Positions 47,201 through 64,000 of a stretch of 64,000 bases of DNA are shown here, piece after piece. Numbering within the stretch: position 1 is the stretch's first letter; every line of letters begins with the position of its first letter. The position numbers are program-made. The DNA comes from Escherichia coli. Lineage in GTDB: Bacteria; Pseudomonadota; Gammaproteobacteria; Enterobacterales; Enterobacteriaceae. The stretch lies in the NCBI RefSeq assembly GCF_044324875.1, contig NZ_CP172185.1. One strand, 5' to 3'.

Positions 47201-50200
47201 CATCAACAATCTGGTTTGCCAGCTCCAGCCAGGCGTGACGTTGACGGTTATCGAGCACTGCGCGGAAGTTTTCTGCCGCCGCCTCTGCATCAAACGGTTC
47301 GCCGTTGGAGAATTTCACGTCATCACGCAGGGTGAAGGTCCAGGTTTTGCCATCTTCCGAATGGGTCCAGCTTTTTGCCAGCCACGGGATCACCGAACCG
47401 TCTGCCTGATATTTCACCAATGGTTCATAAACCATGCTCTGGGCGAACATCTGGTTAGGCGTGTAAAGGTGCGGGTTTAGTGGCCCGACATTCACCGGCC
47501 AGGCGGTGGTGATTTCATCTGGTGCAGCGGCATGGACGATAAAAGACGCACAAGCCAGCAGCGCAAATAGAGTGCGGCGGAGTGTAGAGAACATGGTAAC
47601 CCCAATGGATTAAAATAGATGGCGGAAATAAGTATGACGATTTTAAGTATTCGTCATACTGATTACCTGTTCTGGATCAATAGATGGGCAGTCGGGTGGG
47701 CGGATCAGTTAACTGAATCGATCCATTGCACACTGTCGGCGGAGAGCGTAAAGGGGGTAGGGGTGCAGATCGCCAGGCTTAAATTTTCTAGCTGACAATG
47801 GCTGACTGACAGTGATGAGTGATAGGTGCTGTCTACGCTGACGATTTGCCAGGCGCTGCCGCCACGCTGTTTAACGATGGCTTCTTTGCGCGTCCAGATG
47901 CGCCAGAACATTTCCAGTTGCTGATCGGGATGCACGGCGTCCATCTCAGCGTGTTCCCCGAGGCTGAACACGGCGTTCGCCAGCCAGCGCCAGTTGGCGC
48001 GCGGGCGAATCACTTCGATATCGCAGCCGACTTCGCCTTCATCGCTCAACAGCAGGGCGATATCGTCACCGCTATGGCTTAAGTTGAACCATAGCGGCGT
48101 TTCCGGCGCGAATGCCGGTTTGCCTTGTTCGCCATAGATGATCTCCGGTAGCGGGGAAAGCGTGTGCGAAAGTAATGCACGCCCCGCCAGCCAGCGTTCG
48201 CGTCGTGGACCTTGCGGTGCTTGATCGCGTAAAGCCGGTGGCAGTGGAGCTGCGCTTAAGGTCGAAACTTTCCCCAGAACTATCCGATACATATCAGGGC
48301 CAACGTTTAATGATGATGGATGTATTAATGCCGCCAAAGGCAAAGTTGTTACTCTGCAAAAACTCACAATCAACCTTGCGGGCTTCATGCATGATGTAAT
48401 CCAGCGCGCCACAGTTCGGGTCTGGTTTATTCAGGTTTAGCGTAGGCGCAAACCAACCTTCGCGCATCATTTGCAGACTCATCCAGGCTTCGAGCGCGCC
48501 ACAGGCACCAAGCGTATGACCAAAATAACTTTTCAGCGAGGAGAGCGGCACATTATCACCGTAAATGGTTGCTGTCGCCAGACTTTCTGCCATATCACCA
48601 CGATCGGTCGCCGTACCATGCGCCGAAATATAGCCGATATCACTTGCACTTAACCCGGCGATTTTTAACGATTTTTCCATACAATATTGCATGGTCTCAC
48701 GCTGAGGCTGGGTAATATGTGCCGCGTCGCAGTTAGTCGCAAAGCCGACGATTTCACCGTAAATGGTCGCGCCGCGCGCTTTGGCGTGCTCCAGTTCTTC
48801 AAGAATCAGCGTACCTGCGCCTTCACCAATCACCAGCCCGTCGCGGTTTTCATCGAACGGTGAAGGTGTGGTTTTCGGCGCATCATTGTGCTGGCTGGTG
48901 GCGAAAAGTGTATCAAATACCGCTGCTTCTGAAGGGCATAACTCTTCGGCACCACCAGCAACCATCACCGTTTGATAACCGTGGCGAATGGCTTCCCACG
49001 CATAACCGATCGCCTGGCTGCCGGAGGTACAGGCGCTGGAGGTCGGGATCACCCGCCCGCGCAGGCCGAAAAACAGACCGGTATTAACGGCGGTGGTGTG
49101 CGGCATCATCTGTACATAGGTGGTGCCGGTGATGTTATTGGTGTGCTTTTCCGTCAGCATGGTGGCAAATTCGCTCACCGGACCGGTACTGCCGGTCGAT
49201 GAACCGTACGCAATGCCCGTTTCGCCGCTGGTTAATATCGGATCGCCAATCAATCCTGCCTGCTCTAACGCCAGCTCGCTGGCACGGGTCGACATTTGCG
49301 ACACGCGGCCCATCGCACGGATACGCTTGCGGGTGTAGTGCTCCGGTAGCGTGAAATCATCAACAGGCGCGCCAAGCAGGGTGTGCAGACCATCGTAGAC
49401 CTGCCACTCCGGCATTTTGCGCACTGCATTCTCATACGCCAGCAGACGCGCGGAAACGTCCTGCCAGTTTTCACCAAAGGCAGTCACGCCGCCCATTCCT
49501 GTAATCACTACGCGACGTGTCATAACATCCCTCCGTTGATGGAAATAACCTGGCGGGTGACGTAACCCGCAATATCAGACATTAAATAGCTGGCAAGCCC
49601 GGCAACTTCTTCCGCCTGGCCCATGCGTTTCATGGGGATCATCGACATTGCCTCTTTCAGGGCGCTCTCTTCCATTTCGATCATCCCGGTATCAATAAGC
49701 CCCGGCGCGATGCAGTTGACGGTGATTTTGCGCTTCGCGAGTTCGATAGCCAGTGCTTTTGTTGCGCCGATAATTCCGGCTTTGGCAGCGCTGTAGTTCA
49801 CCTGTCCGCGATTGCCCATCACGCCGGAAACCGAGGACAGCGTGATGATGCGTCCACCCTGGCGTGTGCCGATCATCGGCATAATGCACGGCTGAATAAC
49901 GTTGTAGAAACTGTCGAGATTGGTGTGGATCACCGCATCCCAGTCGTCATCGCTTAAAGCCGGAAAAGCGGCATCGCGGGCGATCCCGGCGTTACTAACC
50001 ACGCCGTACCAGGCACCGTTTTGCGCGATTTCGTGCTCCAGCACTTCCCGACACTGTTCGCGGTTTGCGACGTCGAAACTGAGCAAACGCCCGTTACCCC
50101 CGTTGGCGACAATGGCATTTAGCGTTTCCTGAGCGCCTGTGGCGTCACGGTGATAGTGAACGCCAATATTAAAGCCGTCTGCCGCCAGTTGGCAGGCGAT

Positions 50201-62200: not shown

Positions 62201-64000
62201 TCGCGATATTTTCTTTCGCTAGTACGATTTGTTGTGGCAGATCTAATAACGTCACGGCGATGTTTTCATTGTATTTGCAGCAACGCAAAGCCCACTTACC
62301 CGTATTGCCGCCTACATCGTACAATGTTGTGGGGTTGTTGGCGAATACATAAGGCAGTGCGGCGTTAAATGCGCCATCTGAATAGTAATGATCAAACGCA
62401 AACCAGCTTTCACGAGCGGCGTCTGGTAATTGTGAAAGTGCCGGATATATCGTCGACCAGTCGCCAAATACTTTTAACCCGGACGGTTTTCCTTCATTGA
62501 GTGAATCGGCGAGGAAGAAGAGCCCCTGGTAACAGACATCCTGGGTGAAATCCATATTCACGCGAGTCATAGTGTCATGCAGGAGGTAATGACCGATTTT
62601 CGCCAGGTAATACATTCCCTCTTTACAGGTAATAATTCGCCCGCTTAAGCCCATATCTAACAGAACGCTGGCCGCATATTCGTTGATATGGCTATGTTCG
62701 GTGATATCAGCCAGCGTTGCGCCATGTTTGCCTTGCCGATCCAGATATGAAAGTACACCCGCATTACGTAGGCAGAGTGCTGTTTGAAAAAGCATAGGGG
62801 CAAAGGCAATGCGTTGAGCTTCGGTAATCGCATCCAGTGCGCTAAGAGAATCCTGTTCGTACATGTTGGGCACAACCTGTTAAGAGGGAATTAAATTATT
62901 ATCGGACCGCAGCGGCCCGACTTTAGGAAGAATTATAAATCTGCGCCCGCTGACAAATTCAGTTGAATATCTTTGTCGAGATTGCGGACCCAGCGATTGT
63001 AGTTTTTATGAATTTGTCCGCCTGACGCTTGTAGGTTCTGGCTATTTTCATAATTGATATCGTAGCTGGATGCCGTGTAGTTAATGCGAATTTCGGCTGA
63101 ATGATCGCGTGACTGTTGACGTGCTTTAATTACGCCTTGTCCGGCTTCGGACATAATCCATTTGCGTTCAACGCCAGCTTTCAGAATCGCTTTTTTCACT
63201 TGTTCCTGGGTATGACCAGCGCTGACGGTTGAGTGAACCTGATCAATTGGCGCAGTACGCGCGCAACCCGCTAAAGCACCCACAACAGCAATAGCCGCAA
63301 ACCATTTCATGTAATGTCTCATTAGAACCCCATTAAAGTATTGTTTTTACGAGTAAAGCAAGATTTAACTGTAATTGCTGGCATCACTATTCTTTATTTA
63401 GCGAAAAAATTACTTGTGAGATAAGTCAGTAAGTGCACATCAGAGTAAAAATTTCTGAAATGACTAAATTACTGCCAGCGGGGACCAACTATAAGTGAGT
63501 GAGAAAAATGAGGCAATAAAAATAACACAATGTTATCAGTGCATTCTTTGAGAAGGATTTAATCGCTATTCGGCGTTTATATATATTTGACTTAAGGAAT
63601 GGTTTTTATAAATTAATTGTCTGAATAATGTTTCTTCATTTCCTCAAATCAAATGGCCACTGTTAGATAAACGGTGGCCATTGCCTGCTCAGGAGGTGCT
63701 ATTAACCCGGTAATCGACTTTTCGGTCTGCCCGGTCCCAGTAAAATCGCCAGTTTGCTACCGCCTTTGGTGGTTTCCATCCAGATTTTACACACGCTGGT
63801 TAATGGTACCGAAAGTAGCATCCCTACCGGGCCGAGCAGCCATCCCCAAATTAACAATGAAAGAAATACCACCATGGTGGACATCCCCAGGCGATGGCCC
63901 ATCATCCGTGGTTCTAAAATATTGCCGATGACCATATGGACCACTAAAAACAATGCGCCGACCAGAATACATTCGTAAACGCCATTAAACAGCAGCACCT

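What the first reader, a model, noticed from the sequence alone, without database searches (positions are those of the whole stretch)
47705..63322. Complete aryl-polyene (APE) type II PKS-like cluster inserted between acpT and yhhT
Seventeen co-directional, tightly packed genes encode two ACPs, three ketosynthase-type proteins, a ketoreductase, two hot-dog dehydratases, an aryl-acid AMP-ligase, a thioesterase, a methyltransferase, a PlsC-like acyltransferase, a GT2/acyltransferase fusion, LolA-like and lipoprotein components, and an MMPL exporter. This is the architecture of APE pigment clusters. It sits directly beside the phosphopantetheinyl transferase gene acpT, consistent with the published idea (De Lay and Cronan, as I recall) that K-12 AcpT was orphaned from its cognate carrier proteins when this island was lost. 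Many adjacent genes overlap by 4 nt, suggesting translational coupling. The cluster is already described, so the interest is in strain biology (oxidative-stress protection, biofilm) rather than novelty.
Basis: partly seen in the sequence, partly recalled or inferred. Interest (0 to 1): 0.5.

Follow-up and report, generated by a model that had tools for sequence, protein, structure and literature searches.

The report
Known E. coli aryl-polyene pigment cluster
This is the already described E. coli gene cluster for a yellow antioxidant outer-membrane lipid (aryl polyene), at its original site next to the enzyme gene acpT that activates its carrier proteins, so it is real but ordinary.

Summary
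Window 48294-63322 (minus strand) carries 18, not 17, intact co-directional genes. They are collinear, gene for gene, with apeA-apeR of the characterised E. coli CFT073 aryl-polyene (APE) cluster. They are 94-100% identical in protein to O-island 138 of O157:H7 EDL933. acpT (47705-48292) follows apeR after a single base, so the stated coordinates hold 19 genes.

Of 5,426 complete E. coli genomes, about 820 carry an ape cluster. In 569 of these it sits beside acpT, as here. In every cluster-less genome I inspected, acpT keeps the last 20 bases of the apeR end. That marks a deletion in those strains, not an insertion in this one, and supports De Lay and Cronan's "orphaned AcpT" idea. An AcpT homologue directly follows apeR in 61 of 80 other enterobacterial species.

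One correction. The CFT073 cluster, the one studied for pigment and biofilm, lies at a different locus without acpT. It differs sharply from this cluster in apeA (65% aa), apeH (67%), apeI (72%) and apeG (82%), and in its promoter region. The pigment chemistry of the acpT-linked type is therefore inferred, not shown.

Verdict: already known, low interest.

The parts
62933..63322 (-). apeA: small lipoprotein and first gene of the operon. RefSeq starts it at 63310.
   Evidence: Lipobox LAGC at residues 17-20. No family hit above noise. Only 65% aa identical to CFT073 ApeA but 99% to EDL933. Deleting apeA in CFT073 leaves pigmentation intact.
61806..62864 (-). apeB: SAM-dependent methyltransferase that methylates the aryl head group.
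   Evidence: FlxJ-family MTase at 474 bits, below the 560-bit cut-off. Pfam Methyltransf_2. 94% aa to CFT073 ApeB; its 5' 260 nt lie in a divergent block.
61043..61765 (-). apeC: ketosynthase-like chain length factor, partner of ApeO.
   Evidence: Pfam Ketoacyl-synt_2, E 4e-67. RefSeq name 'beta-ketoacyl synthase chain length factor'. 95% aa to CFT073 ApeC.
60225..61046 (-). apeD: lysophospholipid (PlsC-type) acyltransferase.
   Evidence: TIGR00530 domain, Pfam Acyltransferase, HX4D motif HPTLID and FPEG. 97% aa to CFT073 ApeD.
59993..60250 (-). apeE: acyl carrier protein, carrier of the aryl polyene chain.
   Evidence: NF006617 at 90 bits, above cut-off. DSID phosphopantetheine site at residue 40. 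97.6% aa to the EDL933 ACP.
59730..59981 (-). apeF: second acyl carrier protein.
   Evidence: NF003757 at 146 bits, above cut-off. DSID at residue 39. 98.8% aa to the EDL933 ACP.
59144..59725 (-). apeG: COG4648 integral membrane protein.
   Evidence: Named 'COG4648 family protein' in RefSeq annotations of the same gene. No NCBIfam hit. 82% aa to CFT073 ApeG; its 3' part lies in the divergent block.
57786..59147 (-). apeH: adenylate-forming enzyme that loads the aryl acid starter (4-hydroxybenzoate in characterised homologues) onto the ACP.
   Evidence: AMP-binding type; best NCBIfam hit is 4-coumarate-CoA ligase, below cut-off. Core motifs TSGSTGQPK, YGSTE and GRRGRIVK are present. 67% aa to CFT073 ApeH and 96.7% to EDL933. 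It keeps 120 of the 121 columns that are at least 95% conserved in 72 other species.
57446..57799 (-). apeI: hot-dog dehydratase.
   Evidence: Pfam ApeI-like, E 1.6e-40. 72% aa to CFT073 ApeI and 96.6% to EDL933.
55779..57455 (-). apeJ: glycosyltransferase family 2 domain fused to a C-terminal putative acyltransferase half.
   Evidence: Pfam Glycos_transf_2 at residues 8-130, E 9e-20. The C-terminal 316 aa give only a weak PIM-acyltransferase hit, E 1e-3, and nothing in the PDB. 98% aa to CFT073 ApeJ.
55353..55775 (-). apeK: hot-dog thioesterase.
   Evidence: YbgC/FadM-type hits, Pfam 4HBT_2. 100% aa identical to CFT073 and EDL933 ApeK.
54751..55356 (-). apeL: periplasmic LolA-like carrier.
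   Evidence: LolA and flexirubin LolA2 hits below cut-off. Pfam LolA and LolA_3. Signal peptide without a lipobox.
52464..54782 (-). apeM: RND/MMPL-type inner-membrane exporter.
   Evidence: HAE3, HpnN and MMPL partial hits. RefSeq name 'MMPL family transporter'. 96.5% aa to CFT073 ApeM.
51883..52467 (-). apeN: DUF3261 lipoprotein (LolB-like).
   Evidence: Pfam DUF3261, E 8e-39. Lipobox LTGC at residues 18-21.
50712..51881 (-). apeO: elongating ketosynthase.
   Evidence: NF006618 at 556 bits, above cut-off. Cys155, His281 and His314 motifs present.
50251..50715 (-). apeP: hot-dog dehydratase.
   Evidence: Pfam ApeP-like, E 4e-41. RefSeq name 'ApeP family dehydratase' in O145.
49520..50251 (-). 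apeQ: 3-ketoacyl-ACP reductase FabG2.
   Evidence: TIGR01831 at 474 bits, above cut-off. YSAAK and GASKGIG motifs present.
48294..49523 (-). apeR: initiating ketosynthase and last ape gene.
   Evidence: NF006587 at 777 bits, above cut-off. Cys164, His302 and His335 motifs present. 99.3% aa to CFT073 ApeR.
47705..48292 (-). acpT: Sfp-type 4'-phosphopantetheinyl transferase. It starts 1 nt after the apeR stop codon and is in effect the 19th gene of the operon.
   Evidence: NF007676 AcpT equivalog at 395 bits. 191/195 aa identical to K-12 AcpT. A homologue follows apeR in 61 of 80 species.
48293..48312 (-). 20-nt stretch (1-nt spacer, apeR stop codon, last 16 coding nt of apeR) that K-12-type genomes retain in front of acpT. 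It marks the left breakpoint of the deletion.
   Evidence: Anchored comparison with K-12. Every cluster-less genome listed matches the junction query only as far as window 48312.
63323..63701 (-). 379-nt AT-rich intergenic region (GC 0.34) between yhhT and apeA. It holds a hairpin directly downstream of yhhT that I read as its terminator (about 63660-63690) and is the presumed ape promoter region.
   Evidence: GC content. One sigma-70-like site on the minus strand at 63516-63488, though the scan as a whole is not above chance. Unrelated to the sequence upstream of apeA in CFT073, 30-36% identity. Absent from K-12.

Best explanation
This is the acpT-linked copy of the E. coli aryl polyene (ape) biosynthetic operon, the same island as O157:H7 O-island 138. 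It is intact, sits at its ancestral position between yhhT and acpT, and has the carrier-protein-activating enzyme gene acpT as its last cistron.

How it works is inferred from characterised homologues in CFT073 and Xenorhabdus doucetiae:
1. AcpT converts the two carrier proteins ApeE and ApeF to their holo forms.
2. ApeH adenylates 4-hydroxybenzoate, drawn from the ubiquinone pathway, and loads it directly on the ACP.
3. ApeR primes the chain. The ApeO-ApeC ketosynthase / chain-length-factor pair extends it with malonyl units.
4. ApeQ reduces and ApeI/ApeP dehydrate each round without enoyl reduction. This gives a conjugated hexaene.
5. ApeB methylates the ring.
6. ApeD and ApeJ build the chromophore into a glycerol-phosphate-GalNAc lipid. 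ApeK is a thioesterase.
7. ApeM, ApeG, ApeL and ApeN move the lipid to the outer membrane. There it is a yellow pigment that quenches reactive oxygen species and promotes biofilm.

Gene content, order, integrity and catalytic motifs are shown here. The chemistry and phenotype are inferred by homology.
For: - Synteny is 18/18 with CFT073 apeA-R, and 14 of the 18 proteins are 94-100% identical.
- All 19 proteins are 94-100% identical to the EDL933 island.
- They include the cluster-specific Pfam families ApeP-like and ApeI-like.
- There are no internal stops. The catalytic Cys/His/His, YxxxK, DSxD, HX4D and adenylation motifs are intact, and so are the PPTase motifs.
- Published function: heterologous expression, deletion analysis and oxidative-stress and biofilm phenotypes in CFT073 (PMC8253772; PMC12871727). 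In vitro roles of ApeH, ApeR and ApeO-ApeC in X. doucetiae are summarised. The aryl polyene lipid structure and the roles of ApeD, ApeJ, ApeF and ApeG are in bioRxiv 10.1101/2020.12.19.423268.
- The O157 Sakai copy, ECs_4324-4341, is already called an APE cluster by antiSMASH (PMC9205054).
- AcpT linkage: the gap to apeR is 1 nt, and a homologue sits 5-10 nt after apeR in 60 of 80 species, and 60 nt after it in one more.
Against: - No experiment I found shows pigment production from this acpT-linked allele type.
- Its loading enzyme ApeH is only 67% identical to the CFT073 enzyme. ApeI (72%), ApeG (82%), ApeA (65%) and the whole promoter region also differ.
- ape clusters are reported silent under laboratory conditions in X. 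doucetiae, so expression in this strain is unknown.
- The acyltransferase half of ApeJ has only marginal sequence support.
Confidence: 0.93

Rival explanations
1. It is the same kind of cluster but makes a chemically different aryl polyene, with another head group or chain length. The reason would be that the loading and dehydratase cassette (the 3' part of apeG, apeH and apeI) comes from a lineage distinct from the characterised CFT073 cluster.
For: The block at about 57450-59400 is only 61-82% identical in DNA to CFT073, while its neighbours are 94-100%. ApeH is 67% and ApeI 72% identical in protein. The two types are discrete: 567 against 259 genomes, and no listed genome has an intermediate allele.
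Against: - ApeH evolves fast everywhere. Citrobacter ApeR is 94-95% identical but its ApeH only 73-76%.
- Both E. coli ApeH types keep 120 of the 121 columns that are at least 95% conserved across 72 species.
- X. doucetiae is not among the 80 loci closest in ApeR, so its cluster is probably more divergent. It still makes the same 4-hydroxy-3-methylphenyl hexaene as CFT073.
- The chain-length factor ApeC and the methyltransferase ApeB are 94-95% identical between the two types.
Confidence: 0.07
2. The cluster is a recent horizontally acquired island inserted between acpT and yhhT. On this view the adjacency to acpT is coincidental rather than ancestral.
For: - GC content is 0.555, against 0.496 for the rest of the window.
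- Only about 10% of complete E. coli genomes have it at this site.
- The segment from about 47170 to 64000 differs by only 3 SNPs from strain GN06156, while the flanks differ by about 2%. The segment therefore does move between lineages by recombination.
Against: - Cluster-less genomes keep exactly 20 nt of the apeR 3' end in front of acpT. That is a deletion scar, not an empty target site.
- No integrase, tRNA or flanking repeats appear in the annotation of the region.
- acpT itself has the high GC of the cluster, 0.571.
- An acpT homologue directly follows apeR in 61 of 80 species. nikA follows acpT in Escherichia sp. E1V33, Superficieibacter, Citrobacter amalonaticus and C. sedlakii, so the arrangement is probably older than E. 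coli.
Confidence: 0.05
3. It is a flexirubin or dialkylresorcinol-type, or a xanthomonadin-type, pigment cluster rather than an APE_Ec-type cluster.
For: The NCBIfam flexirubin models FlxB (266 bits), LolA2_flexi (55 bits) and FlxJ-family MTase (474 bits) are among the hits.
Against: All three hits fall below their curated cut-offs of 340, 125 and 560 bits. DarB and StlD models give only 22-24 bits on ApeR, against cut-offs of 450-550. No DarA/DarB-type genes or other extra genes lie in the 18-gene array. Gene order matches APE_Ec exactly.
Confidence: 0.01

Closest known systems
E. coli O157:H7 EDL933 O-island 138 (Sakai ECs_4324-ECs_4341, S-loop 225). This is the island whose two ACPs are the AcpT substrates of De Lay and Cronan 2006.
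   Same: Same chromosomal position (yhhT, then 18 genes, then acpT, then nikA), same gene order and same allele type. All 19 proteins are 94-100% identical. The DNA of the apeI-H-G block is 95% identical.
   Different: Ordinary strain-level divergence only. Some relatives have decayed copies: apeH is frameshifted in O145 RM12367-C1, and O157 strain Z1836 has a half-length match. All genes in the window are intact.
APE_Ec cluster of uropathogenic E. coli CFT073 (c1186-c1204, apeA-apeR; MIBiG BGC0000836). Cimermancic 2014, Johnston 2021.
   Same: 18 genes in identical order and orientation, with overlapping reading frames. Fourteen proteins are 94-100% identical. It is the experimentally characterised reference for product and phenotype.
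   Different: - It sits at a different locus, between decayed sugar-utilisation genes (garD, tagatose/fructose-bisphosphate aldolase, PTS maltose and DeoR-family pseudogenes) and hemagglutinin/ShlB-type pseudogenes, with no acpT next to it.
- Homology stops exactly at the apeR stop codon.
- ApeA is 65%, ApeH 67%, ApeI 72% and ApeG 82% identical, the 5' end of apeB is divergent, and the upstream region is unrelated.
- This type is found in 259 complete genomes, against 567 for the window type.
ape cluster of Xenorhabdus doucetiae (Grammbitter 2019 JACS; Grammbitter 2020 bioRxiv).
   Same: Same gene set, apeB-R, and the same proposed mechanism. Its chromophore has the same 4-hydroxy-3-methylphenyl hexaene as CFT073.
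   Different: Different genus. Its sequence was not compared here, because it was not among the 80 best loci. The final lipid structure is known only for this organism.
Flexirubin (Bacteroidota) and xanthomonadin (Xanthomonas) aryl polyene pigment clusters.
   Same: Type II FAS/PKS-like polyene synthesis on an aryl starter, LolA-like and RND export parts, and an outer-membrane antioxidant pigment. There are weak hits to flexirubin family models.
   Different: The hits are below the family cut-offs. There are no dialkylresorcinol (DarA/DarB) genes, and gene order follows the enterobacterial ape type.

Membership tests
[quoted passage not shown] | The core gene set used by Grammbitter et al. to call an ape cluster: KS (apeO, apeR), ACPs (apeE, apeF), CLF (apeC), DHs (apeI, apeP), KR (apeQ) and transporter (apeM), all present. 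| tested here: met
   NCBIfam and Pfam assignments for each gene. The criterion is quoted.
[quoted passage not shown] | Collinearity with the reference apeA-apeR operon (18 genes, one orientation, overlapping ORFs). | tested here: met
   18/18 genes in the same order as CFT073 with equal lengths, except ApeH at 453 against 452 aa. Junctions are, and the reference description.
[quoted passage not shown] | An aryl-acid adenylating, ACP-loading enzyme (ApeH). | tested here: met
   AMP-binding family with intact core motifs. It is orthologous in position, and 120 of 121 highly conserved ApeH columns are kept. Substrate specificity itself was not tested.
[quoted passage not shown] | Lipid-attachment enzymes (ApeD acyltransferase, ApeJ glycosyl/acyltransferase) and the export module (ApeM, ApeL, ApeN, ApeG). 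| tested here: met
   The ApeJ acyltransferase half is supported only weakly.
[quoted passage not shown] | Production of a cell-bound yellow aryl polyene chromophore. | not testable with these tools
   Shown for CFT073 and X. doucetiae only.
O-island 138 / AcpT-cognate carrier protein island (De Lay and Cronan 2006) | Located between yhhT and acpT, in place of the short K-12 spacer. | tested here: met
   15,409 bp (48293-63701) stand where K-12 has 54 bp. The layout is the same as in EDL933.
O-island 138 / AcpT-cognate carrier protein island (De Lay and Cronan 2006) | Orthology of the two ACPs and of AcpT to the EDL933 proteins used in the biochemical work. | tested here: met
   ApeF is 98.8%, ApeE 97.6% and AcpT 98.5% identical.
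O-island 138 / AcpT-cognate carrier protein island (De Lay and Cronan 2006) | AcpT-dependent 4'-phosphopantetheinylation of the two ACPs. | not testable with these tools
   Published for EDL933 proteins, as summarised in PMC8253772. The original paper is not held in the library.
Flexirubin / dialkylresorcinol-type pigment cluster | Flexirubin-specific family models above cut-off, and DarA/DarB dialkylresorcinol genes. | tested here: not met
   FlxB, LolA2_flexi and FlxJ hits are all below their curated cut-offs. DarB and StlD score 22-24 bits against cut-offs of 450-550.

The most novel reading that the evidence does not exclude
E. coli carries two discrete ape lineages. One is the ancestral acpT-linked operon seen here, in which acpT is in effect the 19th gene and the cluster's own PPTase. 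That arrangement is conserved in most of the 80 related enterobacterial species examined. The other is a translocated CFT073/Nissle-type copy that lost acpT and carries a foreign promoter-apeA segment and a foreign apeG'-apeH-apeI loading cassette. The commoner, acpT-linked lineage has never been chemically characterised. It could differ from the studied one in regulation, because its upstream region is unrelated, or less likely in product.
Probability: 0.12. Interest if true: 0.35.

Novelty: already known. Interest (0 to 1): 0.15.

Why it matters
The finding adds little that is new. The cluster family, its mechanism, its phenotype and its link to AcpT are all published. It does tell us something about this strain. 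The strain has an intact antioxidant and biofilm-promoting outer-membrane pigment pathway, present in only about 15% of complete E. coli genomes, together with its activating enzyme.

Two small points may be useful to specialists.
- The pigment and biofilm work was done on the CFT073 allele, and the AcpT biochemistry on the O157 allele. These are different cluster lineages at different loci, with different loading enzymes and promoters, so results should not be pooled uncritically.
- The 20-nt apeR remnant in front of acpT in K-12-type genomes, together with the apeR-acpT adjacency in 61 of 80 related species, supports the 'orphaned PPTase' story.

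Tried and rejected
- I looked for the origin of the 34-nt K-12-specific filler between the apeR remnant and yhhT. It has no match in the window at up to 3 mismatches. Local alignment recovers only the 20-nt remnant. Its origin is unexplained.
- The promoter and terminator scan of 47500-64000 gave 13 promoter-like and 27 terminator-like sites, against 11.0 +/- 3.0 and 20.8 +/- 4.8 expected. 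It is not informative, apart from one site upstream of apeA.
- I searched the PDB with the C-terminal half of ApeJ. Only noise came back, in the form of designed ankyrin repeats at E of 0.05 or worse.
- I tried to read De Lay and Cronan 2006 directly. The library does not hold it, so I cite it through PMC8253772 and PMC4103896.
- I first assumed the whole window was identical to strain GN06156. This was wrong. Only about 47170-64000 is near-identical, and the rest is about 98% identical with an arsD-arsA indel. I corrected the coordinates of passing features accordingly.
- I considered that the divergent ApeH might signal a different substrate. I set this aside because both allele types keep essentially all of the highly conserved ApeH positions.
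- Rfam found no RNA family inside the cluster.
- The long antisense ORF at 55341-56489 (+), 382 aa, overlapping apeK and lying mostly opposite apeJ, is treated as a shadow ORF of a GC-rich coding region. No evidence was sought beyond the RefSeq annotation, which does not call it.

Full report
**What is in the sequence**

On the minus strand between 63322 and 47705 lies an unbroken array of co-directional reading frames. I used the start codons annotated in the RefSeq genome of E. coli GN06156, which differs from this stretch by only 3 bases. On that basis the array holds 18 cluster genes (48294-63322) followed by acpT (47705-48292). nikA (46020-47594) lies downstream and yhhT (63702 to the window end) upstream.

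None of the 19 genes has an internal stop. The spacing is very tight:
- 6 junctions are 4-nt ATGA/GTGA overlaps.
- 5 junctions overlap by 1, 10, 14, 26 or 32 nt.
- 4 junctions have gaps of 1-11 nt.
- Only apeA-apeB (68 nt) and apeB-apeC (40 nt) have larger gaps.
- acpT starts 1 nt after the apeR stop codon.

It counted seventeen genes where there are eighteen, plus acpT, and its coordinate range includes acpT itself.

**What the genes are**

- Ketosynthases: ApeR scores 777 bits on NF006587 and ApeO 556 bits on NF006618. ApeC is a chain-length-factor-type KS (Pfam Ketoacyl-synt_2, E 4e-67).
- Reduction and dehydration: FabG2 ketoreductase (474 bits), and two hot-dog dehydratases that hit the cluster-specific Pfam families ApeP-like (E 4e-41) and ApeI-like (E 2e-40).
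- Carrier proteins: two ACPs.
- Starter loading and tailoring: an AMP-binding enzyme, a 4HBT_2 thioesterase and a Methyltransf_2 / FlxJ-like methyltransferase.
- Lipid attachment: a PlsC-type acyltransferase and a 558-aa protein with an N-terminal GT2 domain.
- Export: a LolA-like protein, a DUF3261 lipoprotein and an MMPL/RND transporter.

The catalytic motifs are all present. They include the KS Cys/His/His residues, the SDR YxxxK motif, the ACP DSID site, the acyltransferase HX4D motif, the adenylation motifs TSGSTGQPK, YGSTE and GRRGRIVK, the Sfp-type PPTase motifs, and two lipoboxes. Only the acyltransferase half of ApeJ lacks firm sequence support. It gives one hit to PIM acyltransferase at E 1e-3, nothing in Pfam and nothing in the PDB.

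**Identity with known clusters**

The array is collinear 18/18 with apeA-apeR (c1204-c1186) of uropathogenic E. coli CFT073. That 18-gene, 15.5-kb cluster gives the yellow aryl polyene pigment when expressed in a cluster-less E. coli. It has been dissected by in-frame deletions and confers protection from peroxide and increased biofilm (PMC8253772; PMC12871727).

The array is also the same island as O-island 138 of O157:H7 EDL933. It has the same position and the same 19 genes, at 94-100% protein identity. That island supplied the two ACPs shown to be AcpT substrates by De Lay and Cronan (Mol Microbiol 2006, 61:232; cited; the paper itself is not held). The Sakai copy (ECs_4324-4341) has already been called an APE cluster by antiSMASH in the literature (PMC9205054).

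**Mechanism, inferred from the homologues**

1. AcpT makes holo-ApeE and holo-ApeF.
2. ApeH adenylates 4-hydroxybenzoate and loads it on the ACP without a CoA intermediate.
3. ApeR initiates. The ApeO-ApeC heterocomplex elongates with malonyl units.
4. ApeQ, together with ApeI and ApeP, gives the conjugated polyene. ApeB methylates the ring.
5. ApeD puts a conjugated fatty acid, made on ApeF, onto a lysophosphatidylglycerol.
6. ApeJ adds GalNAc and then the ApeE-bound chromophore.
7. ApeM, ApeG, ApeL and ApeN carry the lipid to the outer membrane.

Nothing in the window contradicts this scheme, and none of it was tested on this allele.

**Insertion or deletion?**

K-12 has 54 bp between acpT and yhhT where the window has 15,409 bp. 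The first 20 of those 54 bp are identical to the window. They comprise the 1-nt spacer, the apeR stop codon and the last 16 coding bases of apeR.

In a census of 5,426 complete E. coli genomes, 569 have the intact acpT-apeR junction. Every cluster-less genome listed matches only as far as window 48312, which is the same breakpoint. That is a shared deletion scar, not an empty insertion site.

A scan of species-representative genomes with ApeR found relatives in 405 species. In the 80 closest, an AcpT homologue starts 5-10 nt after apeR in 60, and 60 nt after it in one more. These species include Citrobacter, Enterobacter, Klebsiella, Raoultella, Kosakonia, Lelliottia, Kluyvera, Atlantibacter, Pantoea ananatis, Hafnia and Yersinia nurmii. 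nikA follows acpT in Escherichia sp. E1V33, Superficieibacter, C. amalonaticus and C. sedlakii.

So acpT is a conserved terminal gene of enterobacterial ape operons. The K-12-type arrangement is the derived state, as De Lay and Cronan proposed. The higher GC of the cluster (0.555 against 0.496) is shared by acpT (0.571) and does not outweigh this evidence.

**A correction that matters for transferring published results**

The CFT073 cluster is at another locus. It lies between decayed sugar-utilisation genes and hemagglutinin-type pseudogenes, with no acpT beside it, and homology ends exactly at the apeR stop codon. Fourteen proteins are 94-100% identical to those of the window. The exceptions are ApeA at 65%, ApeH at 67%, ApeI at 72% and ApeG at 82%.

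A sliding comparison shows two sharply bounded divergent blocks. One runs from about 57450 to 59400 (apeI, apeH and the 3' part of apeG). The other runs from about 62600 leftward in transcription terms through apeA and the whole upstream region, which is unrelated between the two clusters.

The two types are discrete. The window-type block occurs in 567 genomes, including O157:H7, O55:H7 and O145. The CFT073/Nissle-type block occurs in 259. The number of window-type genomes matches the number with an acpT-apeR junction (567 against 569). Allele type and locus therefore appear to go together. Genome-by-genome overlap was not checked.

I asked whether the divergent ApeH implies a different starter and found no sign of it. 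ApeH is fast-evolving in general: Citrobacter ApeR is 94-95% identical but its ApeH only 73-76%. Both E. coli types keep 120 of the 121 alignment columns that are at least 95% conserved in 72 other species. X. doucetiae is not among the 80 closest loci, yet it makes the same head group and hexaene as CFT073. A variant product remains possible but unlikely, at about 7%. Different regulation is more plausible, because the promoter regions are unrelated.

**Verdict**

The finding is real and correctly interpreted, and it is already known. The small additions here are not surprising to a specialist. They are the scar shared by the cluster-less genomes inspected, acpT as a conserved last gene of the operon in 61 of 80 species, and the two discrete E. 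coli ape lineages with a swapped loading cassette and promoter. Interest is low.

Noticed in passing
window 57450-59400 and 62600-63701, compared with L002 (CFT073) 14150-16100 and 19300-20400: Compared with the characterised CFT073 ape cluster there are two sharply bounded divergent blocks (61-82% DNA identity, or unrelated) inside an otherwise 94-100% identical operon. They cover apeI, apeH and the 3' part of apeG, and the 5' end of apeB, apeA and the promoter region. The donor of the CFT073-type segments is unknown. No species among the 80 closest loci exceeds 73% in ApeH.
   Followed up: partly
window 47170-64000 compared with 13462-47169: From about 47170 (inside nikA) to the window end, the window differs from strain GN06156 by 3 SNPs (50999, 52538, 60649). 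To the left of 47170 it differs by about 2%. The ape-bearing segment therefore looks like a recombination tract shared between otherwise diverged lineages. The closest complete genomes for 24000-48000 are only 99.2-99.6% identical (BEC1-S17-ESBL-09, strain 135, EAEC 042).
   Followed up: partly
L004 (O145 RM12367-C1) 11687-13047; O157:H7 Z1836 (hit H47): Some acpT-linked clusters are decaying. apeH is annotated as frameshifted in O145 RM12367-C1, and one O157:H7 genome matches only half of the apeI-H-G block. The window copy is intact.
   Followed up: no
window 36475-42083 (minus strand): An accessory sugar-utilisation island lies between nikR and yhhJ. It encodes a GntR regulator, PTS IIA, IIB and IIC (galactitol-type), an FGGY kinase, an HPr-like protein and a class II aldolase. 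Part of it has low GC, 0.45 at 40000-42000. Only 750 of 5,426 genomes cover at least 80% of 24000-48000, which suggests it is variable.
   Followed up: no
window 11587-13721: The ars operon here is the three-gene arsR-arsB-arsC form. Strain GN06156 has an extra 2.3 kb carrying arsD and arsA between arsR and arsB, with the indel at window 13315-13462.
   Followed up: no
window 13872-13955 and 14107-14191 (minus strand); about 14465-14548: Two tandem copies of the AgrB antisense RNA family (Rfam RF02891, 108 and 92 bits) lie next to the dinQ type I toxin gene.
   Followed up: no
window 3601-3632 (plus strand): A shuA/chuA 5'-UTR RNA thermometer (Rfam RF02597, 60 bits against a gathering score of 58) sits immediately upstream of chuA. 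The heme-uptake chuA-chuS genes and a divergent shuT occupy the left end of the window.
   Followed up: no
L003 (K-12) 2714-2747: The 34-nt K-12 filler between the apeR remnant and the yhhT stop codon has no counterpart anywhere in the window. The yhhT stop codon also differs, TGA in K-12 and TAA here, although the C-terminal residues are the same. The origin of the filler is unexplained.
   Followed up: partly
window 55341-56489 (plus strand): A 382-aa open reading frame runs antisense across apeK and apeJ. It is not annotated in RefSeq. It is most likely a shadow ORF of a GC-rich coding region.
   Followed up: no
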